Positions 3,760-51,403 of a stretch of DNA of 64,000 nt are shown piece after piece (the first letter of the stretch is position 1; each line of letters begins with the position of its first letter). The DNA is taken from contig JASJQH010006880.1 in NCBI GenBank assembly GCA_040143965.1, forward strand, positions 1 to 64,000, read 5' to 3'. Under the pieces are notes generated by a model. That model did no database searches. It was not told the origin of the DNA and saw nothing but the letters and a program-made list of their open reading frames with translations. The position numbers and the translations under genes were made by a program. The stretch comes from Basidiobolus ranarum. Lineage: Eukaryota.

Positions 3760-6663
3760 ATGCTTTTATTTCATGATGCTGCAGGCTTACAAAGCCCGAA
3801 TAAAAAGGTACTTAATAAAAATCACCTTCTTTAGAAGCCATACTAAATTTCTTCTCCAGAAGAATCAAGTCGAACAGAAAACACCAAATTCCTTGCAAGC
3901 CAATCTCAAAGCCATATTCACTAGGTTCGATTATGACAACAAAGGCACAATCGTCGCTGAAGATCTTTTTCCAATACTGGACCTATTCGAACGTGAACAA
4001 GGCATATCTTTACTCGATGCAGAACCTAAAGGTCTTTTGAACAAATTTTGTCAGAAAAATAGTGATCTCGAGTTATCAGCTGAAGATCTCCATCGACTTA
4101 TCTCCCAATTATCTTCACCCTTAAACATTCGCACACCAAGTAAATCTCCAAGAATTTCCACTCCTCGTTCTCACTCGGCATTGGGTTTCGTTCACCCATT
4201 GTCACCTCTCTCCTCTCGAAAAAGAACCACACCCATTATTTCAAAAACTATTAGTACAAAAAAAGTTGCTGTCAGTAGCTTAAGACGTAGAAGTTTGTCC
4301 CAAAGTGGCTTTCCGAGCAGACTATTTTTTGACAAAGAGGAGAGAAAATTGTCACCACACTTTTCGAACACTTCTCATTCAATCATTGAAGAAGATAATC
4401 CTGGTTCGGTTATTTATAGTCGTAGTTTATTTTTGAGCGATTCAGCTGATAGTCTTGATTCACCTCGTCAGGTACTTTTATTTTTATTGCTCATACGGTA
4501 CTTCAAAATACTAACCTTCATAATTAACCTGCATTTAGCTTGACATGATCGACAAAATAAAGACACCAAAATCAGCGCGTCATTATCGTGATACGATAGA
4601 GTCATGGCGTGAGCGTTCCTATGAAGCAAGTTCATGGATTTCTTCTGCTTCCGAAGGAGATGTAAGTTATGAGGGATTGGAAGGAGAAAAAGCTCGACTG
4701 GAGTTTGAGGTGAGTTTTACCCATTTTGAGGTTTTACAGTCTGTAAGCTGACTGTATTATGTTAACGAAATATATAGAGAGATGAAGATCTTTCCTCTTT
4801 ACAGATTAGTCACCTCAATAGGATAACCGTCGATTTGAACAAACGACTTCGACAGGCAGAGAAAAGCTTGAATTTTTCAGTTCATCAACATGAGGATCGG
4901 ATTAGCGATTTGCAACATCGTATTGATGATATGCATAATGAATTGGTGATCAAGAAAAGGGACATTCAGGAATTGAAAGGTCACGAAAAAACCCATTTGG
5001 CACAAATAAATATGGTATGCCTTATGTATTCCTCACAACCTTTTTGTAACTACCGACTCAGTCGTTTTGATAGCTTGAATCAGAGGTTGTTTCTGTTTCC
5101 CGACTCTTGACCCACCACAAAAATATGTATTCCGATCTCAAACGGCAATGCGAGGAAAAGAAAGGTAACTATGTTTAGCTCTCTGTGGTTTTCGTCATTT
5201 AACTTACAAATCATGGTTTTACCCAGCCGAAAATGAGAATTTCCAGCAGCAGTTGAGATACAAGGAAAAAGAACTTTGCGAAGCTGAGGCGGAGCTCCTT
5301 ACATTTGCATCTGAGCAGAAAAAGGTATCGTATATATCGAATATCTTCTATTTCTTAGATGAGATTATTTATCTTCATTAAAAGTTTCAGGAAGAGCGAA
5401 CAACTCTGGAGAAGCATATTGCTAGACTTGAAAATGAGGTCAGGTTTGCTCAAACACTGGAAACAGAGGTTAATGAGCTTCAAGAAGAAAACCATTATTT
5501 AAGGAACGTTGTTGAAAATCTGCGTAATGACTTGGATGACGCTATCAAAGGCATTCATAACAGTTCGGGTAGAGAATCTGAGATGCATAGCTATCAGCGA
5601 GGCGAGGTAATTATTTCGTTATAATTTGTGGTATCCGAGTGATACTAATATAACTATAATTTTGTGCAGAATTTACATTCCGAGTTGGCACCCCTGTTAC
5701 AGAAAAACTCCGATCAGAGTAAACATACTCAAATTGTGCCAGACTCCGACCAACGTGAGAATCTCGACCTAAATGTAAGAATTTGTAGGTTTGAATCGTT
5801 GAAGTATCTGTCTAAACTCTTATGAAATAATAGAGTACTATCAAATACGCCAATGCCTTGGTGGATGAGAACAACTTCTTCAAATCTCAGGTAGATGACG
5901 CCACGCAGAAATGGATGGATGGTAAGTTACAAATGTCATAATCGTCGCTTTGTGATGCATATAGTAACTTTCTTCAGCATTGGAGCAACTTCAACAAGCA
6001 AAATCCTCCGTCAAAGAAGAAAGGGAAGCTCTATTAGCTGAAATCGAACATCTTCGCAATCCTATTCAAGTTCCTGTTTCTCACCAAGATATGATCACTC
6101 AATGCGACCTACTTTCAGTGACCGATTCGTTAGTTGACGCTTCGGTCCAGTATGAATACCCCGAAAACCTAGAAGAGGCGATCGATACCACTCCCAATGC
6201 TATTGCCCCATGCACCACCAAATTAGTAGTAAATTTAGAAGAGCATCAGTTGTTAGAAAATAGCTATCAAAAACTGACCAAAGAATTTGATTCTCAGAAG
6301 ACAATCATCAACGAGCTATTAACGTTAAATGACAGTCAAGCCCATACCGTTTCTGCAGCATCTAAATATGATACCAACACCGTTGGACATACTCTTGGGG
6401 GTCATTCTCAAACGTTGTTGAAATTGATCATGTATACTTTGATGATATTTGTTTTGGGCATTCTATCTAGTATCATATTATCCAACCTATCCTTTTACAC
6501 TGAATCCACCAACGCTCTTGAGGATTCCTACATGGACACTTCATCGTGGATGACTCAGGTATCGAATGAGATTTACCATTCAAACACTAGTGCATTCAAA
6601 TTCATCACCCAGTGGTTTAATATTTTCAGTGATGACAATGACATGGTTCAAATTCCGACTTGA
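3760..6663 (+). CDS. EF-hand-like / long coiled-coil / C-terminal single-TM protein, Kms1/KASH5-like (multi-exon; start 3760 or 3773)
   Basis: N-terminal LKAIFTRFDYDNKGTIVAEDL resembles an EF-hand loop. Spliced exons join into a long heptad-rich region. Hydrophobic helix LIMYTLMIFVLGILSSIIL near the C-terminus, which ends VQIPT*. Confidence 0.7.
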
Positions 6664-30342: not shown

Positions 30343-31035
30343 ATTGCAATTTCCATTCCAATTCCCAATTCTCGTTCAAAAATTAGACTGTACAAATAAT
30401 AAAGTAAATTTCTAAGCAGCACTTACAATGACTAAATATGGGAGTTTGGCTAGGGTATGGTTATATATAAAATTGCCTTAACTGGTTAAAACTTTATATG
30501 CTAACAATGGAAAATACCTGTGATGATCTGAGTCCTGATCCTGCGACCAGCATATAAAGAGCATAGAATGAAAGACTGGTTTTATTGACTTTAAAGCTGC
30601 ATGCCAATTACAGAATCATTGAAATACCCTTGTGGCTGTGCTGCCGTGATGCCATACCTTATCATCCCTTACATTGCGACTACTGATTCGTCTCTTAGTG
30701 ACTGTTACTCCGTGCAAGTATTGTAATCTGTGCTTTTTGATTTCGCTTACCGTGAAATTTGCTTGTTTGTACACCAACCATGATTTTGTAAAATAACACC
30801 CTGATTTTTACTTTACACTTTCAGTTAATTATTTGCTACAAGTTCCCCTTCCCTAGAACTATATTCTTTCGCTGAAGATATCATCACAGGGTCTTCTCTA
30901 TTTTTCTATTAGACTCTTTGTACTTTTCAGGTCTATTCCATTGTATAGCGTGTAGTGATAATATTTTCTTTAACCTTGATCTTGCTCCTTAGACTTATTT
31001 TCAAACTTCATAGATATCTTTGACAGCTCCGTATA

Positions 31036-34000
31036 ATGATGTCCAAAATCCCAAAGCCTGGTTCTGGTTTACCTCCGCCTTCAAAGCGAAAGCCTTTTGG
31101 TTTTTCATTGAACAACAACACCCCTTCGGACCGTGACTCTGTTTCTTCTGACGCTTCATCTGAGAACTCTCGTTTCTCAAGAACCTTATCTTCTGACCGA
31201 ATTTCACCTTCACATACACCCACCCCTCCTCTTAGCGGACCCCTTAGTGCTATCAATAAGCAACTTTCGAATGGTGCAGTTTTTCGTAAACCAAGTCTTT
31301 CCAAACCTTCCTCTGCCAATAGTTCTCCAATTTTGGTACCTAGTGAGAGGCTCTCTCTTTCAAGTCCTGGAAAACCTCTCGGAACCAAAAAGAACTCAAA
31401 AATATCAACCTTTTCGAATATTCCTTCCCCTTCTTTCCACAGCCCTTCTGAGCAGGGTGGCAACTTTCCTCCTGGCTCGACTTTGTTATCCCCAAAACGT
31501 CTCAGCGTGTTAAAGCAACACCCACCAAGACCTAACTCTCCGGCTATTTTGAGCCAATTCCAAGTTGGAGACCGTGTAAGTGTTGAGTCTATGAATCTCA
31601 GTGGTATTCTACGATTCTTAGGGGCTACTCAGTTTAAACCTGGTACTTGGGCAGGAGTAGAGTTGGATGTAGAAGGAACAGGAAAGAATGATGGAATCGT
31701 TGATGGGTAGGTGAAATCATATCTATTTCTAAAAGTTCGAACTTTCATATAAAATGTGAATAGACACCTAATTCTAATGCTTGCTTAATTTATGATTTAG
31801 AGTTGTATATTTTACGTGCCCCCCTAAGACTGGTATATTCGTGTTAGGACATAAGCTTACGAAGATTCAACCTGACCAGACTAACACCCCTATGGTGAAT
31901 ACAAATGAATCTGTTGATTCTGTGTCGAAAGATTCCAACAGATCAATATCAAAGAGAAGAGGAGTACCACCTCCTGGCCCTATATCTAGTACTACTTCTC
32001 CCGTGAAAAGGTCATCATTGTTGCTCTTATCCCCGGTAAATCCTGTTCCTAATGTAACTGGTGCTAGAGCATCTCGATATATTGGGATGACCGCAGCTCA
32101 GTTAAAGAAAGTTAATTCTTCCCCAGTCTCAAAAACGTCTCCTAGTGCTGAGGCAAGCACATTAAAGAGTAAACGAGAGAGCGCCCGAAAATCCCTTCCT
32201 ATTACACAGAGTGGTGATTTGAATGCTACCACTAAGTTATCACCTAGCTACTCGGTCCCATCACCCTCCTCTTCACCAACTTCATCAAAAGGACCACCGA
32301 CCCCTTCTAGATCTAATTCTCCGGTTCATTCAGCTGTCGCAATGCCTACAACAGAAATAATCGAAGAGGATATGATCACCCAGGAATTCGACTCACCTAC
32401 TTCAGGTGAGTACATGACACTGGAGCAAGCAAACACCAAAATTCAACGACTGGAACTTAAAATCGAAATGCTAAAATCAGAAAACGAATTTTTCAAACTC
32501 TCAAGCCAGCAACCTTCTCAGATAATATCTCCGGGAGATTTGGGAGAAAATGCTCACGATATTGTCCAAACATTATCACAGGTAGATGAGTTAAAAAAGG
32601 ATTTAAATGATTTTAGAAATCTCCAAGATCAATGGGAAACAGTAAAGATGGAGCAATCTGACAGCATCATCCAGTTAGAGTTGAAAGTGGATCAATATTT
32701 GGAAGAAATCAACGTACTCAAGACTGAGAGACTTAATTCACAGCTGGAATCGGAAAATCGAATCAAATTAGAAACCCTTGCCATCTCTGAGGAATTAACG
32801 AAGCAACTTGATGAGAAGACAGCTCAAATATCCGAGCTTCAAAACACCATCGATTCTATGAACGCTAAACTTGATGAAAAGATCCTAGCTGAGACGAAGC
32901 TAAAAGAACATACAGAAATACAAAGAGAAGGAGACACAGCTAATCAAGAGTTAATTATCTCATTACAAAGTGAACTCGAGAATAAGAGTATAGAAGTTGG
33001 AAAACTCACCGCTCGCTTAGACCGAACTAAATCTGATTTTGAAAAAGATAAGAGTCAACTAATTGAGACAATTTCAAGGATTCAAAGTGAAGAAAAAGAG
33101 AGAATTCAAACATATAAGGAGCAGCTTGCCACTGCAGATAACACCAATACTGATGTATGTGCACTGGAGCAAAAGCTTGAAGAATTCGAAAGAATTATCA
33201 AAGATCAAGAAGAGATGGTGAGCCAGCTGCGATCCGCTGGCTCGGAAGCTTTTGATCACTACGAGGGTGAACTTCAAGCCCTAAAGGAAGAAAATCACTC
33301 TCTACAAGAACAAATCAAAAATATAGTTGATGCTGGGACGCAATTGGAATCTGAGTCTGACTCTTTGAAACTTGAACTTGAGAAAGCCAAGACCCGAGAA
33401 GAAGAGCTAAAGAGTGAAACTAATGCACTGCAAGAAATCGTTGATAATTATCAGATAAGTAATACTAAGCGTAAAGATGAAATACAAAAACTCAAAGCTG
33501 AGGTGGCACGGTTAACGGAAAATCAGACAGAAGGAGTTGAACACAATACTCAAGAAAAAGACACCCTCTTGACCGAATTAAGGGAGTTACAAAGCAAATT
33601 CGAAACATTGCAAAAAGAAAGAGAGGAATCATTAAAACAACAAGAAAGTTTCAAATTGGTACATGCTTCCACAGAGGAAGAGCTTAATCAAGTCAAAGCA
33701 GCCTGTAAGGAATTTGCCACCTCCCAAGAAACATGGTTTGCGGAAAAAAAGGAACTTGAAGCAGAGATCTCCAATATCAAGAGACTTCTAGAAGAAAAGG
33801 ATTTAGAGATAGCACGGTCTGCTGTCAATAACTCAGAAAAGGTTCAGCCCACCGATACCATCAAGGATTTGCATGGTATGATTAAGGAGGATTCTTCTCA
33901 ATTTGAAAGTATTATCGAGGAAAAGAACGAGGAAATTCGCAAACTTAGCTCCGAGTTGGAGGTGTTACATTCGCAATTGAGTGCGATCGAGCTCAGTAAA

Positions 34001-34972
34001 GCACATGTCCAGCCTATAGATGAGCAAGATATTCCGTACGAAGAGCTCCGATCTAAACACGATGAATCCTTAACCCAGTACAATAGGTTGCAAACTGACT
34101 ATTCAGCTCTAATGGACGCCCAAGCTAGTCTCCTTGAGGCACACAAGCAGATGGAAGCTGAATGTTTAAAACTAATGGATGAGGTTGAGAGGCTTCATAA
34201 TGAATCCCTCGAAGGAGACATGATATTTTCTACCGACGAAGTAAGATCTGACGAGAGTCAGTTGGATGATGTAGAGGTAAATCGTCTTCGAGGAACTCTT
34301 TCGGAGAAGCAAGCCATTATTAGTCAGATGAAGGTACAATACAAGGATGATATACGACAACTTCAGAAGCGGTTGACGGATCTTGAAATTACAAAGCAGA
34401 AAGAGATTGAAATGCAGTCCAAAGATATTGCAGAATTAGAGAGCATTGTTGAGCACAAGATCTTCCGAGAAGCAGAGTTAGAAGAGCAAATTGCTGAGCT
34501 AAAAAAGAGGGTAGATCATATGGATACAACTTCCCAGGTCTCTTCCAAGTGCGAAGATGAACCTCTGACTGAACGGCCAGAAAAAAATGCATCTAACACC
34601 AAGTTTAGCTCTTTATCTGAGAGCCTTGCTGACGATCTGGATACTGAGCTATATTGCGAGTTGTGTGATTCAGCCGGCCATGACATTCTTTCTTGTACAG
34701 CCTATCCCATCGATATGAATGAGTACAATGGATACGAAAGTGATGTAGGTGATGATAGCGACAGAGCGGTATGTTTAATGAATCCTTCAGATCATTGTTT
34801 ATTGCTTTTAATTTTTCTCTTTATTTTGCGTTCATTTACTAGTATTGCGATAATTGTGAAGAATTTGATCTTCATTGGACAGATGAATGTCCCAACCAAG
34901 ATGAGGTAATATCTTGTGCACATCTGCTTTTAACGCTACCATAATAACTCTGCCTTTTTGTAGACTTTTTAA
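31036..34972 (+). CDS. CLIP-170/Tip1/Bik1-type microtubule plus-end protein
   Basis: CAP-Gly domain (LRFLGATQFKPGTWAGVELDVEGTGKNDG), long coiled coil, knuckles YCELCDSAGHDILSC and YCDNCEEFDLHWTDEC, C-terminal DETF*. Confidence 0.9.
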
Positions 34973-39000: not shown

Positions 39001-40314
39001 TTAGAACAGTCGGGTGAATTTAAAGGTTTGTCCCTTTCGTGAGCGTAAGAATCGAGGGAAAGTGTGTCGTACCATAATCTCAGTTACTTCAATGATGGCG
39101 GCATCAAAGATTGATCCATCAATATCTTCATCTAGAATTCTGAGGGTGATCTGCTTGACTACGGTATTGCAAAGATTGACTTGAAGTGCAGCCCCTGGTA
39201 CTATAAAAGTGTCATAGATAGCTAACACTTCGTCTTTGAGCAAGCTCTTGGAGAGTTTCTTTGCTCGTTGACAACGCTCAAAAAACAAAGGGTTCTCAAT
39301 GCTAAACTCCTTTACAGTGAAATCTTTGAATTGTTCGAAAAGTAATGGGTCGTGAACTACTTCGTAGAATCCCATTTGGCCCTTTTCCAGACTCCATTGA
39401 TTACGGGTGTTTCGGTAAACTTTGATCAAAGGTATGTTAATCATGATTACTTGAATAACCATCAATCCGAACACGAGGAAGTAGCTGGTTGCAAACACGG
39501 AGTGATAGGGTTTAAATACGTCCACGAAGGAGTATACAAAGAAAATTCCTAGAACAATCATTATAGTCATTACTATATAAAGGAGCTCTCTACGAATCCC
39601 GAAAGCATCTTGCACCCCATGAAGCATGTACAAGCAGAAGGATCCAATCACTAATGCATAGGTACAGCAGATTATCTTTAAGGGAAGAAAGACAACATGC
39701 TCGAAGCAATCCGAAGAGGAATCGATCTCAAAAACTTCTTGATGAGTTACGGTCATGATTAGAGTGATCACTATTTGCATGATAATCGCACCACCAAGCC
39801 CATAAAATATCCATTTTGAAGGTAAGCGGATGCGATAGCGAAATAGATTAATATGATCCATAGTTCGCTCCTCTTTACCCAATCCATCGGCATCAAATAT
39901 AAGCTCAAGATGCTCGTTGCCTGGGTCTTTCATCTCAAATTGGTGGATTTTGGAAACGGAGCTCTTTGAGTATCCTTGGCGGACTGCTTGGAGTTTGGCG
40001 TGGCTGGCATAGAAGGTTATCGCAAGCTTTAAATATTTTAGAAGTACGGTTAGTATGGTTATAGCCCCCCCTATCGAGATAAACCAAATGGCTATACCAC
40101 ACAAGAATTTGGTTCGAGTCATTTTAGCAATGAGATAAGCCATCAGGATATTCATAGATAAAACACTCGCTATAGATAATACGACGCTTCGGTATTTGAT
40201 CATGTCATGCTTCCGGTTACTTATAAACATCAATATGGATATAAGGGTAAACAGCAACCAGAAACCCAGTAAGCACATGTTCACTATCAAATGGGCATCT
40301 GAGTTAAACTCCAT
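39001..40314 (-). CDS. Seven-transmembrane protein fused to a C-terminal RGS domain
   Basis: Seven hydrophobic segments, DAFGIRREL loop, RGS box FKDFTVKEFSIENPLFF...IYDTFIVPGAALQVNL...TFPRFL. Confidence 0.87.
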   Translation of the reverse strand: MEFNSDAHLIVNMCLLGFWLLFTLISILMFISNRKHDMIKYRSVVLSIASVLSMNILMAYLIAKMTRTKFLCGIAIWFISIGGAITILTVLLKYLKLAITFYASHAKLQAVRQGYSKSSVSKIHQFEMKDPGNEHLELIFDADGLGKEERTMDHINLFRYRIRLPSKWIFYGLGGAIIMQIVITLIMTVTHQEVFEIDSSSDCFEHVVFLPLKIICCTYALVIGSFCLYMLHGVQDAFGIRRELLYIVMTIMIVLGIFFVYSFVDVFKPYHSVFATSYFLVFGLMVIQVIMINIPLIKVYRNTRNQWSLEKGQMGFYEVVHDPLLFEQFKDFTVKEFSIENPLFFERCQRAKKLSKSLLKDEVLAIYDTFIVPGAALQVNLCNTVVKQITLRILDEDIDGSIFDAAIIEVTEIMVRHTFPRFLRSRKGQTFKFTRLF

Positions 40315-41757
40315 TTTGTACAGCGGGGAGGACTGAAAACCAGGTCATCAATTTTTCCTTGATAGTAGAAACCAACAGAGGCTTTTATATGTGTAAGGGT
40401 AAGCTCTGATTTCCCATCAGACACTATAGAAAAGTCCATGTACCACTATTTCTCAAGTATATTCAAGTACAGAGTACGATTAGGAAATCTAGATTGCTGA
40501 TTTTTGCTTACTATTGAAATGGTTGAGCATTGCTAGACGACCCTAACCCTAGCTGGAATAAGCAATATGTCCAATGGCTCCTTCTGCTTTGCAAATCACT
40601 CGAGTTATTCACGCATGCCGGATTTTACCTGACTTTAACAAGTTCTCCGTAAGTAGTCAGTATTGGAACCAACATGGCTATATGAGGGGACACATGTTCG
40701 TAAAAAGTGACATGTTGCAACCTACACTCAGTAATATCAATGCTACACAATGCTTTTCAAATTGTGCTTTACAACAGGCGGAGAACTTATATGTATACTG
40801 AGTGTACCAAGACGCACTATCCCTACTCAAGTTAATAAAGAATTCCACACCACGATTTTGCAATAGAATTGAGCTTCCTGTGCATCGTACCACAACTCTA
40901 TCCTGTTGGCCAGGCACCATGTAGTATTATCAGTATTAATGTATCAGTACTGGTACAGTCGTTGAGAAATGCAGCGGTTTGCCTATCAGCGCTGGTGGGT
41001 TTGGGTCACAGATAAGAGTTATTAAAGCTCATGACTAACCCAAAATTGTACAGTGTTGGCAGCTACGATCTTGAAGGTATTTAGAACCTGCTTAACCTTG
41101 TAAACTTTAAGAAATTTTTATTGTCTATCACTTGTTTATTACGTAGAGCAACGATCAGAACAAACGAATATGTTTACAGTTTCAATTATGTACGCAGAGT
41201 GAGCATGTTGAATAAATCTACTGTTTGACACACTAATACTCATCAATCTGGTTTTTCTCAAATCGATCGTCATTCGGCCAGTTTATGCTAAATGGTTTAA
41301 AAGTGTCTAACTTAGTCAATGTTATATATATGGACTTTCATTTTTCTCGATATTTTATTCTCGTGTCAGATAATTTATCTCAATGTCGACCATTGGCAAA
41401 CAAATCTAGCATAGAAGTGCCTTCAGATCGAACTTTTGCTAATAATTTATTTGATCTACCGCGCAACAATTGAGCGATGACTTAGCAATGTCCCTATTTG
41501 TGAATTTCTATGCCTAGAATATCACCATCAAGGTCAGAATTATCGATCTCTAACCTCAATGATGTCGAGATACATTAAAAAACCGCTATTGAACTTACCA
41601 TGACACGGACATTGGGAAAAATCGAGTTCTTACTTGGGCAACTACCGATCGTTGACCAAACCACTAAAACCCCCCATTTTTGGAAAGAAGAGCAGTATAT
41701 ATAAAGGCGCCTCCCATCAGAAATAACCACAACCTACATACATTACACCCGTCAAAA

Positions 41758-48390: not shown

Positions 48391-49223
48391 ATGAAGGAAC
48401 AGCTCGTACCTAGCCCAAGAACTCGACAGGCGTTAGTAAATAGATATTTTAATGAACAACGAACACACACAACTAACGAGTCAAAAGGCCTTGGTAAACT
48501 TCAGACGCAAAAGAATGGCGACGTTACGTGTCATATCAAACAACGTTGTACCCAGTCTACCTTCCATTTAAGAGCCAAACTAATAGGTATAAAAGACAAC
48601 ACTTCTTCCCTACTTGACTCTATCTGAAACTTTCCCTTATGTTGATAGAGGTCGCCGAAGAAATGGTCAACCATATGTTCGAATGCAACCATACCCATAT
48701 CGAAATCCACGAACAACACCGGTTACCAAAACTTTCAGAGTTTATTGAAATCGTAGTACGACGTACAAATACGAGTTTAACTAGCATTTTAATAGCATTA
48801 ACTTATTTAACTCGATTAAAGAAAAGGCACCCTGGGTGTAAAGGAACTTATGGGTCTGGTCATCGACTATTATTGGCTTCAATAATTATTGCTACGAAAT
48901 ATCTCAACGACGACGCGTACTATAATAAGACTTGGGCAATCGTATGTAAAGGAATATTTACGATAGAAGAGATCAATAAGATGGAATTGGAGTTGTTGTT
49001 TTTTTTAAACTTCAAGTTGTACATCTCTCTGGAGTATTGGTCGGATTTTATCACACTGATAGACAGCAAATGCTCAGTTCATTTCGAACCAGGTTTATTA
49101 TGTAAATTATACTTCCAAGTCAAGGAATCATCACAAACAACCAACTCAAATCCAGTAGATTCAATTAAACTTGACTGTAATCAACTTACAGGGAATTTTC
49201 CAAAGAGGTCAAGTTTAATTTGA
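48391..49223 (+). CDS. Pho85-type (Pcl) cyclin, paralog 1 (intron 48587-48648)
   Basis: LPKLSEFI...ALTYLTRLK...HRLLLASIIIATKYLNDD...NKTWA...EINKMELELLFFLNF. Confidence 0.88.
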
Positions 49224-50407: not shown

Positions 50408-51403
50408 CTACTTAGGTGTACCAAAAACAGATTGAGGCAATAGTGACCACATATGAGGAAGTATGGGCATACTAAGGCGCTTGTGAACTGTATCTACTAT
50501 AGGAAAGCGAGGAACAATTGTGTTTAGCGGCTTCTGACTTACTTCAGATTGGAGTGGAAATTTCTTGGGGTCTAGAGTTAGTGATTCATTTCGGGTGATA
50601 ACCTGTGGCTTGCTTTGACGAGTCTTAGACTTGGCTTGAATATGAATCGCTTGGAATCTGCCACAAACATGATCAATCAGTTGTCCGCTAGAGTTTGGTT
50701 TACCGGAATCATGCCAGTTTCGTGACACCTTTTTATCCATCAGATGTACAAAATCCTTCCATTGTTCAGAGGTGATGTGTAATTTGAAATTCAAGAAATA
50801 CAACAACTCGAACTCCATCTGATTGATTTCCTCAATACCAAACATCCCATTGCTTACCAGTGCCCAAGTCTTATTATAATATGCATCGTCATAAAGGTAC
50901 TTGGTAGCTACTATGATTGCCGCTAACAACAGTCGATGCCCAGATCCATACGTTCCTCTACATCCAGGGTGTCGTTGTTTCAATCGAATCAAGTACATAA
51001 GCGCCACTAATATCGTGGAATGGCTGGTGTTCATGCGTCTAACAATCTTTGATATAAAGTCAGAGAGTTTAGGTAGCTTCTCTTGTTCAGTATCATCAAC
51101 CTTAAGGTCTCCACAATGAAATAAAGTATTCACAATCCTTTCGGTGATGTCTAGGTTGGCAATGAGAAGAGTCAACCCAAGAAGTCACATATCCATAGCT
51201 TAACTGAAGTACATACCTATCAATTCTACACGAAGCTGTGTGGTAAGATACTCCTTAGAACGTAAACCACTAGAACCGTTTAATAAAACTCGATTGGAGA
51301 CTTTCCCAAGCTCGTTAGCAGAGTGCGAAGTTTGAAGTTTTTGGCTACATAGTCTGTTATTGACTAGGATAGTTTGGGCAGAGTTGGGTACTTGGGTTTT
51401 CAT
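50408..51403 (-). CDS. Pho85-type (Pcl) cyclin, paralog 2 (intron 51216-51151)
   Basis: LPKLSDFI...ALMYLIRLK...HRLLLAAIIVATKYLYDD...NKTWA...EINQMEFELLYFLNF. Confidence 0.88.

What the first reader, a model, noticed from the sequence alone, without database searches (positions are those of the whole stretch)
3760..6663. Candidate KASH protein and dynein-activating adaptor (EF-hand, coiled coil, Spindly-like motif, TM, IPT end)
Seen: an EF-hand-like N-terminus (FDYDNKGTIVAEDL), a long coiled coil, the spliced motif GE|NLHSELA (5670-5690) right after it, one TM helix, and a ~55-60 aa tail ending VQIPT*. Known: vertebrate KASH5 is an EF-hand/coiled-coil dynein adaptor anchored in the outer nuclear membrane; S. 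pombe Kms1 is a similarly built KASH protein; KASH peptides end with a penultimate Pro; dynein adaptors carry an LxxE Spindly motif. Inference: a LINC component with a longer-than-metazoan luminal tail in an early-diverging fungus, likely annotated only as hypothetical.
Basis: partly seen in the sequence, partly recalled or inferred. Interest (0 to 1): 0.7.

Follow-up and report, generated by a model that had tools for sequence, protein, structure and literature searches.

The report
Fungal KASH5-like nuclear envelope adaptor
This Basidiobolus gene encodes a membrane-anchored coiled-coil protein built like KASH5, the vertebrate protein that hooks meiotic chromosomes to the dynein motor, and it belongs to an unnamed family found across the fungi, so this kind of link between nucleus and motor may be much older than vertebrates.

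Summary
Window 3760-6663 (+) is a 10-exon gene. Its 785-aa product is identical to NCBI "hypothetical protein K7432_000266 [Basidiobolus ranarum]".

The protein has these parts in order:
- an EF-hand pair (residues 27-100);
- a Ser/Pro/Arg-rich linker;
- a ~197-residue coiled coil (282-478);
- the motif NLHSELA (494-500), whose first codon follows an intron;
- one TM helix (704-726);
- a 59-aa tail ending VQIPT.

An exhaustive HMMER search found 135 relatives. All 30 that I could name are fungi, from chytrids to mushrooms and Taphrinomycotina. No Pfam family was shared by the 63 hits scanned.

E498 is kept in 50 of 50 aligned members and L495 in 48 of 50. Pro at -2 occurs in 62 of 81 TM-bearing hits, and 44 of these end in PT. 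All 8 Basidiobolus paralogues end Q[IV]PT. The Neolecta homologue is named Kms2 by its source.

My best reading (0.55) is a SUN-tethered outer-nuclear-membrane protein of the Kms type that acts as an EF-hand-type dynein-dynactin adaptor, like KASH5. SUN, LIC and dynactin binding were not tested. The scan has no earlier finding on this.

The parts
3760..6663 (+). Whole gene: 10 exons, 9 GT-AG introns (52-68 nt), 785-aa product plus stop
   Evidence: Exon join translates exactly to P0005 = NCBI hypothetical protein K7432_000266 [Basidiobolus ranarum]. Exon 1 (MLLFHDAAGLQSPNKK) resembles the N-termini of the B. meristosporus orthologues P0151 and P0152.
3890..4111 (+). EF-hand pair, residues 27-100. 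Loop 1 is D40-D51 (3929-3964) with K at loop position 5 and D at 12. The second loop is non-canonical.
   Evidence: The family profile A3 hits calmodulin at E 5.6e-12. AF2 model pLDDT 75, H-loop-E-H twice. Foldseek and VIA matches are all EF-hand lobes. The domain is detected in 81 of 135 hits.
4112..4571 (+). Ser/Pro/Arg-rich linker, residues 101-231, predicted disordered (crosses intron 2)
   Evidence: pLDDT under 50 over 99-236. 29 Ser, 12 Pro and 12 Arg in 131 residues. Low conservation in A1.
4784..5561 (+). Conserved coiled coil, residues 280-478 (exons 4-7); the homology core of the family
   Evidence: Single AF2 helix 282-478. Heptad signal. Best-matched stretch in most of the 135 hits lies within query 280-475. 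131 of 135 hits carry it.
5604..5690 (+). Spindly-like motif E|NLHSELA, residues 493-500, split by intron 7 (5607-5669); LHSEL itself is 5673-5687
   Evidence: E498 is kept in 50 of 50, L495 in 48 of 50 and L499 in 41 of 50 rows of A1. The family form is [ST][KR]SL[GA]xE[LM]. 74 of 81 TM-bearing hits have [LM]xxE[LVIMF] within 90 aa after the coil. It fits the published consensus L-Phi-x-E-Phi / JxxE-Phi.
6226..6360 (+). Conserved pre-membrane helix, residues 641-685 (NSYQKLTKEFDSQKTIINELL)
   Evidence: AF2 helix 641-685. It aligns with QYExLSRELxxQKxLIxEL of the Taphrinomycotina members. Conservation rises over 641-680 in A1. Function unknown.
6415..6483 (+). Single transmembrane helix, residues 704-726
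   Evidence: The only Kyte-Doolittle segment above 1.6 (peak 2.54). Conserved YTL...G pattern in the family. Basic residues lie on the N-terminal side in the paralogues.
6484..6660 (+). Luminal tail, residues 727-785 (59 aa): Y-x-D-x3-W segment, an amphipathic W-containing helix, and the end VQIPT (QIPT = 6649-6660)
   Evidence: Tail alignment of 67 hits. 62 of 81 TM-bearing hits have Pro at -2, and position -3 is V, W, I or F in 53 of those 62. 8 of 8 Basidiobolus paralogues end Q[IV]PT.

Best explanation
The gene encodes a tail-anchored protein of the outer nuclear membrane. It is a KASH-type partner of the SUN protein and belongs to a pan-fungal family that includes the Taphrinomycotina proteins annotated as Kms2.

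Proposed mechanism, all inferred from architecture:
1. The single C-terminal helix sits in the outer nuclear membrane.
2. The 59-residue tail crosses the perinuclear space, and its free C-terminus (...VQIPT) docks in the SUN domain. This fixes the protein at the nuclear envelope or at the nucleus-associated microtubule organiser.
3. In the cytoplasm the protein dimerises through the ~200-residue coiled coil.
4. It then acts as an EF-hand-type dynein-dynactin adaptor. The N-terminal EF-hand pair, on a flexible linker, takes the dynein light-intermediate-chain helix. The coiled coil lies along the dynactin filament. The LHSEL motif just after it contacts the dynactin pointed end (p25).
5. The result is microtubule-based pulling on the nucleus or, through SUN, on chromosomes.

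Shown here: gene structure, domain folds, family membership and conservation. Inferred: location, SUN binding, dimerisation and dynein-dynactin binding.
For: Architecture. EF-hand pair, coiled coil 282-478, one TM and a 59-aa tail.

Family.
- 135 homologues at E <= 1e-3, 60 at E <= 1e-10.
- 30 of 30 named ones are fungal, spanning Chytridiomycota, Basidiobolomycota, Zoopagomycota, Mucoromycota, Glomeromycota, Basidiomycota and Taphrinomycotina.
- 81 of 135 have core plus C-terminal TM. Of these, 60 also show the N-terminal domain and 74 a [LM]xxE[LVIMF] after the coil.

Selection acts on the predicted contact points.
- E498 is 50/50 and L495 is 48/50 in A1. Neither was a criterion for choosing the rows.
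- Pro at -2 in 62 of 81 (44 PT, 7 PS, 7 PV, 2 PI, 1 PQ, 1 PL), with V, W, I or F at -3 in 53 of 62.
- 8 of 8 Basidiobolus paralogues end Q[IV]PT.

Match to the literature.
- KASH is defined as a TMD plus a short tail plus a C-terminal 4-aa pattern, with PT decisive in plants (PMC4050730, passages).
- The Spindly consensus is L-Phi-x-E-Phi, updated to JxxE-Phi, and binds dynactin p25. The FIP3 EF-hands hang on a long unstructured loop (bioRxiv 10.64898/2026.04.25.720804, passages).
- The Spindly motif follows a coiled coil of similar size in all adaptors (PMC5379953, passages).
- KASH5 has an EF hand at 18-109, a ~190-residue coil, a putative Spindly motif at 371-376 after the coil ending at 349, forms a homodimer, and binds LIC helix 1 (PMC3787381, PMC10071310, PMC9242646, passages).

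Link to Kms. P0005 and the Neolecta protein named 'Karyogamy meiotic segregation protein 2' give two collinear BLASTP matches, E 1e-16 for the coil and 1e-07 for the EF domain. S. pombe Kms1 is described as an ONM KASH protein and dynein adaptor (PMC3787381, passage).

Lead only. The ESM Atlas by features ranks a Basidiomycota cluster first (0.95) and the vertebrate KASH5 cluster third (0.86). Rab11-FIP4, ninein-like and other EF-hand coiled-coil clusters follow.
Against: - No binding or localisation was tested. No SUN, LIC or dynactin sequence of this fungus could be obtained (no SUN domain in the window's 27 long ORFs).
- No match to KASH5's Pfam models (KASH_CCD, EF-hand_9) or to Pfam KASH. 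This holds for P0005 at E <= 10 and for five relatives at E <= 1. The 50-member scan shows only 25 of 143 families, so it is not exhaustive.
- The tail (59 aa; family median about 62) is longer than the 9-40 aa of the working KASH definition. It shows no sequence match to solved KASH peptides.
- 19 of 81 TM-bearing hits lack Pro at -2. These include Mucorales (ends LPVS, IPLS, AVLA, VTLS) and Entomophthorales members.
- EF loop 1 has Lys at ligand position 5 and the second loop is non-canonical, so calcium binding is doubtful. Published FIP3-LIC binding is calcium-independent.
- JxxE-Phi is a short motif. By my own rough estimate it would appear by chance in about one in five 90-residue stretches, so only its aligned invariance carries weight.
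- Homology to S. pombe Kms1/Kms2 itself was not shown (one search found only the query). Kms1 is described as having a short KASH domain (PMC3410425, passage).
- The ESM score for KASH5 (0.86) is below the tool's 0.9 bar.
Confidence: 0.55

Rival explanations
1. It is a SUN-bound KASH protein, but a structural one. On this reading it works like S. pombe Kms2 or budding-yeast Mps2, anchoring or inserting the spindle-pole body or nucleus-associated organiser in the envelope. The EF-hand pair and the LxxE motif would then bind organiser components rather than dynein-dynactin.
For: The tail evidence is the same as for the best explanation. The only named relative is called Kms2. Kms2 is discussed in the listed papers as an SPB and nuclear-envelope-breakdown factor (search listing only, PMC8351742). 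EF-hand pairs are generic peptide-binding modules, and the closest folds are calmodulin, centrin and S100.
Against: Three features together have a published rationale only for dynein adaptors: the invariant JxxE-Phi placed 15-40 residues after a ~200-residue coil, an N-terminal EF-hand pair on a flexible linker, and the conserved coil length. The two roles are not exclusive. Basidiobolus has two paralogue groups that could split them.
Confidence: 0.25
2. It is a tail-anchored coiled-coil protein of the ER or Golgi (a golgin or tether, or an LRMP/Jaw1-like ER protein). It would not depend on SUN, and the conserved C-terminus would serve another luminal partner or retention.
For: No sequence similarity to any curated KASH model. 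The tail is longer than the canonical 9-40 aa. Many tail-anchored coiled-coil proteins exist (general knowledge, recalled).
Against: A 45-70 aa luminal tail with a conserved free C-terminal Phi-P-T is the defining trait of KASH proteins in plants and animals. It is kept from chytrids to mushrooms. Golgin tails are very short (recalled, not tested here).
Confidence: 0.12
3. It is a mis-predicted or non-functional gene, and the resemblances are chance.
Against: The reading frame is open across 10 exons with canonical splice sites. Orthologues at 54-58% identity and paralogues at 36-43% in two Basidiobolus species keep all domains. There are 135 homologues.
Confidence: 0.02

Closest known systems
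Vertebrate KASH5 (CCDC155), the meiotic LINC component and transmembrane dynein activating adaptor
   Same: Same order of parts and similar sizes: an N-terminal EF-hand pair (18-109 against 27-100), a ~190 against ~197-residue coiled coil, a JxxE-Phi Spindly-type motif about 20 residues after the coil, a disordered stretch, one TM and a luminal tail with penultimate Pro. The ESM Atlas lists the KASH5 cluster third (0.86, lead only).
   Different: No hit to KASH5's Pfam models. Here a ~130-residue linker separates the EF-hands from the helical region. The tail is 59 aa, against the ~20-aa KASH peptide of KASH5 (PMC9242646, passage), and ends V-Q-I-P-T. KASH5 is described as conserved in vertebrates (PMC3410425, passage); this family is fungal.
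S. pombe Kms1 / Kms2 (KASH partners of Sad1)
   Same: Both are fungal outer-nuclear-membrane coiled-coil proteins with a C-terminal TM. Kms1 is described as a dynein adaptor tethered by Sad1. The Neolecta member of this family carries the source name Kms2 and matches P0005 in two collinear blocks.
   Different: Direct homology to the S. pombe proteins could not be tested here. Kms1 is said to have a short KASH domain. A 2014 study found no close homologues of Kms1/Kms2 outside the species by BLASTP (PMC4050730, passage). No paper in the searched library holds Kms1 together with 'Spindly motif' (0 papers). None holds KASH5, Kms1, EF-hand and dynein together (0 papers).
Plant KASH proteins (WIP, SINE families)
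   Same: A TM followed by a tail whose last residues fit x-[VAPIL]-P-T, with the terminal PT decisive. Here the end is Q-I-P-T, and the family mostly ends V/W/I/F-P-T.
   Different: The cytoplasmic parts are unrelated. Plant tails are 9-40 aa. Gln at -4 is outside the plant pattern [DTVAMPLIFY].
EF-hand-type dynein activating adaptors (RAB11FIP3, CRACR2a, ninein/NINL)
   Same: An EF-hand pair as the candidate LIC-binding module, a long dimeric coil, and a Spindly-type motif after it. [quoted passage not shown] These clusters appear among the ESM look-alikes.
   Different: Those adaptors are soluble and bind cargo through small GTPases or centrosomal partners. This protein is itself membrane-anchored. 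No sequence-level homology beyond the EF-hand was shown.
S. cerevisiae Mps2 / Csm4 (KASH-like partners of Mps3)
   Same: Fungal tail-anchored partners of a SUN protein at the SPB or at meiotic telomeres (search listings only; otherwise recalled).
   Different: Not compared here. No Saccharomycotina protein was among the 30 named hits. Budding-yeast telomere movement is actin-based (PMC3787381, passage).

Membership tests
KASH proteins (working definition of Zhou et al. 2014, PMC4050730) | Putative KASH domain lies immediately C-terminal of a transmembrane domain and is the C-terminus of the protein | tested here: met
   TM 704-726, tail 727-785, then the stop codon.
KASH proteins (working definition of Zhou et al. 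2014, PMC4050730) | Luminal tail of 9-40 aa (up to 60 in their deep search for animal KASH proteins) | tested here: not met
   The tail is 59 aa. The family median is about 62, range 33-126, among 62 hits with Pro at -2. It falls within the relaxed limit of 60 quoted.
KASH proteins (working definition of Zhou et al. 2014, PMC4050730) | Conserved C-terminal 4-aa pattern (animals [PATHQL]PP[QTVFILM]; plants [DTVAMPLIFY][VAPIL]PT), present in most family members | tested here: inconclusive
   QIPT fits positions -3 to -1 of the plant pattern but not -4. 62 of 81 members have Pro at -2 and 44 of 81 end in PT. 8 of 8 Basidiobolus paralogues end Q[IV]PT.
KASH proteins (functional definition) | Binds the SUN domain; localises to the nuclear envelope in a SUN- and tail-dependent way | not testable with these tools
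   No SUN sequence of this fungus was available. No complex prediction was run.
KASH5 / CCDC155 family (Pfam PF14662 KASH_CCD, PF14658 EF-hand_9) | Significant match to the family's curated profiles | tested here: not met
   Neither profile is listed for P0005 at E <= 10 nor for P0057, P0138, P0127, P0006 and P0151 at E <= 1. No profile-profile comparison could be run.
EF-hand pair | Two helix-loop-helix units packed as a four-helix lobe, with sequence similarity to EF-hand profiles | tested here: met
   A3 profile against PDB: calmodulin at E 5.6e-12. AF2 topology. Foldseek probability 1.00 and VIA Z 8.9 to calmodulin lobes. On the single sequence the match is sub-threshold.
EF-hand pair | Canonical Ca2+-ligand pattern in the 12-residue loop (positions 1, 3, 5, 12) | tested here: not met
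   Loop 1 is D-Y-D-N-K-G-T-I-V-A-E-D, with Lys at position 5 and Asp at 12. The second loop lacks the pattern (read).
Dynein-dynactin activating adaptors | N-terminal LIC-binding module of a known type (CC1 box, Hook, EF-hand, RH1) | tested here: inconclusive
   An EF-hand pair is present. LIC binding could not be tested.
Dynein-dynactin activating adaptors | Long coiled coil (about 200-260 residues) followed by a Spindly motif (L-Phi-x-E-Phi / JxxE-Phi) | tested here: met
   Helix 282-478, then L495-H-S-E498-L499. E498 is 50/50 and L495 is 48/50.
Dynein-dynactin activating adaptors | HBS1 (QxxH/Y plus acidic patch) near the start of the coil; homodimer; activates processive motility | not tested
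   A conserved [HQ]-E near residue 315-316 (E316 82%) was seen but not analysed. Dimerisation and motility need experiments.
Kms1/Kms2 family of S. pombe | Detectable homology to S. pombe Kms1 or Kms2 | not testable with these tools
   No S. pombe sequence was retrieved. The indirect evidence is that the Neolecta homologue P0057 is named Kms2 by NCBI and matches P0005 at E 1e-16 and 1e-07.

The most novel reading that the evidence does not exclude
The pan-fungal family found here (EF-hand pair, ~200-residue coil, invariant SLxxEL, TM, Phi-P-T tail) and vertebrate KASH5 (with LRMP/Fue) descend from one transmembrane dynein-dynactin activating adaptor of the opisthokont ancestor. If so, KASH5 is not a vertebrate invention. 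The fungal Kms proteins would be its orthologues, and the nuclear envelope would be one of the oldest dynein cargoes with a dedicated adaptor. The long fungal tail with a plant-like VPT end would then show how SUN-KASH contacts looked before the animal PPPX form.
Probability: 0.3. Interest if true: 0.78.

Novelty: new member of a known kind. Interest (0 to 1): 0.6.

Why it matters
KASH5 is presented in the literature as the first transmembrane dynein activating adaptor (PMC9242646, abstract) and as conserved in vertebrates (PMC3410425, passage). S. pombe Kms1/Kms2 were reported to have no close homologues elsewhere.

This gene shows that the same build is kept, motif by motif, in an unnamed family. 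The build is an EF-hand pair, a coil of fixed length, a Spindly-type motif, a membrane anchor and a Pro-Thr end. No Pfam family was shared by the 63 hits scanned, and the named members run from chytrids to mushrooms.

That gives fungal cell biologists a concrete candidate for the protein that couples nuclei, spindle-pole bodies or meiotic telomeres to dynein. It also gives point mutants to make (L495/E498, the last four residues, the EF-hand pocket). Finally, it makes testable the question of whether nuclear-envelope dynein adaptors are ancestral to fungi and animals.

Tried and rejected
- Whole-genome search: no genome is held for this window.
- Word-indexed protein searches:
  - the last exon against longer proteins found only the protein itself;
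  - the 50-row family profile found only 8 Basidiobolus proteins;
  - the Taphrinomycotina profile, meant to catch S. pombe Kms1/Kms2, found only its own first row. Kms membership therefore stays indirect.
- Pfam: nothing above the curated cut-off on the protein or its exons. At E <= 1e-4, 52 of 63 hits had no family. Only annexin (3 Pucciniomycotina members) and NPHP3_N (1) pass the cut-offs.
- PDB by sequence: nothing for the whole protein or for TM plus tail. The A1 profile gave only weak coiled-coil and calmodulin matches, and no KASH peptide among the 60 rows shown of 268.
- Full-length AF2 without an alignment was poor (pLDDT 48) and was used only for secondary structure.
- ESM Atlas on residues 640-785: no usable hit.
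- Complex prediction was not used. No SUN, LIC or p25 sequence of this fungus was available, and a homodimer pass would not have changed my odds.
- No dynein-adaptor EF-hand structure appeared among the listed fold matches. That is inconclusive, since all EF-hand lobes score alike.
- Earlier scan findings: none on this locus, these words or this sequence.
- Considered and rejected: an intron-less start at the in-frame MML (3773). The spliced N-terminus matches the orthologues and the database model.
Full report
1. What is in the sequence

Window 3760-6663 on the + strand reads as a gene of ten exons. The nine introns are 52-68 nt long, all GT...AG, and have 23-39% G+C against 40% in the coding sequence. 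Joined, the exons give 785 codons plus TGA. The product is identical, letter for letter, to a database protein named "hypothetical protein K7432_000266 [Basidiobolus ranarum]" by NCBI and "EF-hand domain-containing protein" by UniRef. Basidiobolus ranarum belongs to the Basidiobolomycota, an early-diverging fungal phylum. The first, 16-codon exon is supported by the similar N-termini of the B. meristosporus orthologues.

(a) EF-hand.
- FDYDNKGTIVAEDL is residues 39-52.
- Alone, the protein reaches only sub-threshold Pfam scores (EF-hand_7, E 0.011).
- The ~85-residue N-terminal domain is homologous across the family (81 of 135 hits).
- A 26-row profile of it (A3) hits calmodulin in the PDB at E 5.6e-12.
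- AF2 with that alignment gives pLDDT 75 and the topology helix-loop-strand-helix twice.
- Foldseek's listed matches are EF-hand lobes, with E no better than 0.013 but probability 1.00 for the top ten.
- VIA-align gives Z 8.9, rmsd 3.3 A over 75 residues to the calmodulin N-lobe, and all 50 rows shown are EF-hand proteins.
- Loop 1 has Lys at ligand position 5 and the second loop is non-canonical. I therefore expect a structural, peptide-binding EF-hand pair rather than a calcium sensor.

(b) Coiled coil.
- A single predicted helix spans 282-478.
- It has no proline, 2 glycines, and a clear heptad register: 62% hydrophobic at a/d against 33% overall.

(c) Motif.

(d) TM helix.
- One segment passes the threshold, 704-726.

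(e) Tail.
- It has 59 residues and ends VQIPT.

Between the EF-hands and the helical region lies a ~130-residue linker rich in Ser, Pro and Arg, predicted to be disordered.

3. Relatives

An exhaustive HMMER search of 1.84 billion representatives returned 135 proteins at E <= 1e-3, 60 at E <= 1e-10 and 4 at E <= 1e-30. I could name 30 of them in three look-ups, and all 30 are fungal:
- a second Basidiobolus ranarum paralogue;
- Acaulospora, Calcarisporiella, Benjaminiella, Phycomyces, Umbelopsis, Bifiguratus and Rhizomucor;
- Dimargaris, Syncephalis, Neoconidiobolus and Massospora;
- Spizellomyces, Borealophlyctis, Thoreauomyces and Phlyctochytrium;
- Marasmius, Dentipellis, Tulasnella and Fomitopsis;
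- Rhodosporidiobolus, Mixia and Jaminaea;
- the Taphrinomycotina Neolecta, Saitoella and Pneumocystis.

None of the 30 was from Saccharomycotina, Pezizomycotina or Schizosaccharomyces. The other 105 hits are unnamed, so this is not a census.

No Pfam family is shared by the hits. At E <= 1e-4, 52 of 63 scanned hits had none, and only annexin (three Pucciniomycotina members, N-terminal) and NPHP3_N (one) pass curated cut-offs.

Basidiobolus carries several paralogues: at least three in B. ranarum and five in B. meristosporus. They form two groups. Group A is this gene with P0151 and P0152 (46-58% identity within the group). Group B is P0006 and P0147-P0150 (34-43% identity to group A).

4. What is conserved

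Of the 135 hits, 131 carry the coiled-coil core, 81 the N-terminal domain and 81 a C-terminal TM. Many of the rest look like truncated gene models.

Among the 81 with core plus TM:
- 60 also show the N-terminal domain.
- 74 have [LM]xxE[LVIMF] within 90 residues after the coil.
- 62 have Pro at the penultimate position (44 PT, 7 PS, 7 PV, 2 PI, 1 PQ, 1 PL). The residue before it is V (25), W (15), I (9) or F (4) in 53 of these 62.
- The median tail is about 62 residues.

In a 50-row full-length alignment (A1) the only invariant column is E498. The columns at 90% or more are M1, E358, L458, L495 and P784. I chose the A1 rows partly for a Pro-containing end, so P784 there is biased. The fair figure for the penultimate Pro is 62 of 81. 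L495 and E498 were not selection criteria.

The family form of the motif is [ST][KR]-S-L-[GA]-x-E-[LM]. It sits 15-40 residues after a conserved coil end resembling LKETIDRLRFDLDELR.

The tail has three shared elements:
- a Y-x-D-x3-W segment;
- an amphipathic Trp-containing helix (here FKFITQWFNIF; in Glomeromycota IILYWIETLL);
- the Phi-P-T end.

All eight Basidiobolus paralogues end Q[IV]PT.

The exceptions matter. Nineteen of the 81 lack the penultimate Pro. Among them are Mucorales proteins ending LPVS, IPLS, AVLA or VTLS, and Entomophthorales proteins.

5. How it most likely works

The conserved free C-terminus after a single TM is the hallmark of KASH proteins. It was used as such to discover the plant families, where the terminal PT is decisive (PMC4050730, passages).

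The cytoplasmic half has the three elements that define dynein-dynactin activating adaptors:
- a known type of LIC-binding module (an EF-hand pair);
- a long coil of fixed length;
- directly after it, a Spindly motif.

The Spindly consensus is L-Phi-x-E-Phi, recently widened to JxxE-Phi, and it binds dynactin p25 (bioRxiv 10.64898/2026.04.25.720804, passages; PMC5379953, passages). In FIP3 the EF-hands hang on a long unstructured loop, as they do here.

The one published protein that unites both halves is vertebrate KASH5:
- EF hand at 18-109 and a ~190-residue coil (PMC3787381, passages);
- EF-hands plus coil spanning 1-349, with a putative Spindly motif at 371-376 (PMC10071310, passages);
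- a homodimer that binds LIC helix 1 (PMC9242646, passages).

The corresponding numbers here are 27-100, 282-478 and 495-499.

I therefore read the protein as an outer-nuclear-membrane anchor. SUN would hold it through its tail, and it would recruit and probably activate dynein-dynactin. Location, SUN binding, dimerisation and motor binding are all inferred.

6. Relation to known families

Works like: KASH5.

Member of:
- Not of KASH5's Pfam families, as far as HMMER sees.
- The ESM Atlas places the KASH5 cluster third among look-alikes (0.86). Rab11-FIP4, ninein-like and other EF-hand coiled-coil clusters come after it. Scores under 0.9 are leads only.
- The family does include a Neolecta protein that NCBI names Kms2. 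It matches this protein in two collinear blocks, E 1e-16 and 1e-07. The most economical filing is therefore as a distant member of the fungal Kms-type KASH proteins.

This has limits. I could not retrieve S. pombe Kms1/Kms2 to test it. Kms1 is said to have a short KASH domain (PMC3410425, passage).

A 2014 study reported no close homologues of Kms1/Kms2 outside the species. In the searchable library:
- no paper holds Kms1 together with 'Spindly motif';
- none holds KASH5, Kms1, EF-hand and dynein together;
- none of the 15 papers listed (of 37 found) that hold at least three of Kms1, Kms2, KASH and EF-hand mentions EF-hand.

About 1.7 million PubMed Central articles and subscription journals are not covered by these searches.

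7. Rivals

- A purely structural SPB or nuclear-envelope role of the Kms2/Mps2 kind (0.25). It is compatible with the tail evidence and not exclusive of the adaptor role. The two Basidiobolus paralogue groups could divide the tasks.
- A SUN-independent ER or Golgi tether (0.12). This is hard to reconcile with the conserved Phi-P-T end.
- An artefact (0.02). The open frame across ten exons and the conserved paralogues exclude it.

8. Verdict

The gene itself is a new, unannotated member of a known kind, a KASH-type nuclear-envelope protein.

The wider point is the unnamed pan-fungal family with KASH5's full adaptor architecture and an invariant Spindly-type motif. I could not find it in print, and it would interest people working on LINC complexes and on dynein adaptors.

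Interest 0.6. Confidence in the combined KASH-plus-dynein-adaptor reading 0.55.

Noticed in passing
P0041, P0055, P0058 (family members; P0041 is from Rhodosporidiobolus, the other two were not named): Three long family members (1424-1557 aa) carry annexin repeats in their N-terminal part (P0055: E 8.7e-35, three stretches). They keep the coil, the SLxxE motif and an R-[IV]-P-V end. This would be an annexin-KASH fusion.
   Followed up: partly
P0016, P0018, P0022, P0042 (P0016 is from Benjaminiella, Mucorales; the others were not named); P0114, P0135 (Neoconidiobolus, Massospora): These members keep the TM and the Trp-containing tail helix, but their tails do not end in Pro-Thr (ends LPVS, IPLS, AVLA, VTLS, or unrelated). 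The terminal motif has drifted or been lost in some lineages, or the gene models are cut.
   Followed up: partly
Basidiobolus proteins P0005, P0006, P0147-P0152: The family is multiplied in Basidiobolus: at least 3 copies in B. ranarum and 5 in B. meristosporus. They form two old groups (34-43% identity between groups), and all end Q[IV]PT.
   Followed up: partly
window 31024-34906 (+): A CAP-Gly domain (E 6.7e-13) at the end of one ORF is followed by a 1037-aa open frame with no Pfam hit. This is probably a CLIP-170- or p150-like microtubule-binding coiled-coil protein.
   Followed up: no
window 39004-40344 (-): One open frame combines a 7-TM stretch with a sub-threshold match to class C GPCRs (7tm_3, 27.3 bits against a cut-off of 33.5) and a C-terminal RGS domain (E 2e-15). 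This would be a receptor-RGS fusion.
   Followed up: no
window 48618-49220 (+) and 50411-51184 (-): Two divergently oriented cyclin-domain ORFs (Cyclin_N and Cyclin) lie about 1.2 kb apart.
   Followed up: no
window 6226-6360 (+), residues 641-685: A helix just before the membrane (NSYQKLTKEFDSQKTIINELL) is conserved between Basidiobolus and Taphrinomycotina (QYExLSRELxxQKxLIxEL). It has no assigned role and could be a further partner site.
   Followed up: partly
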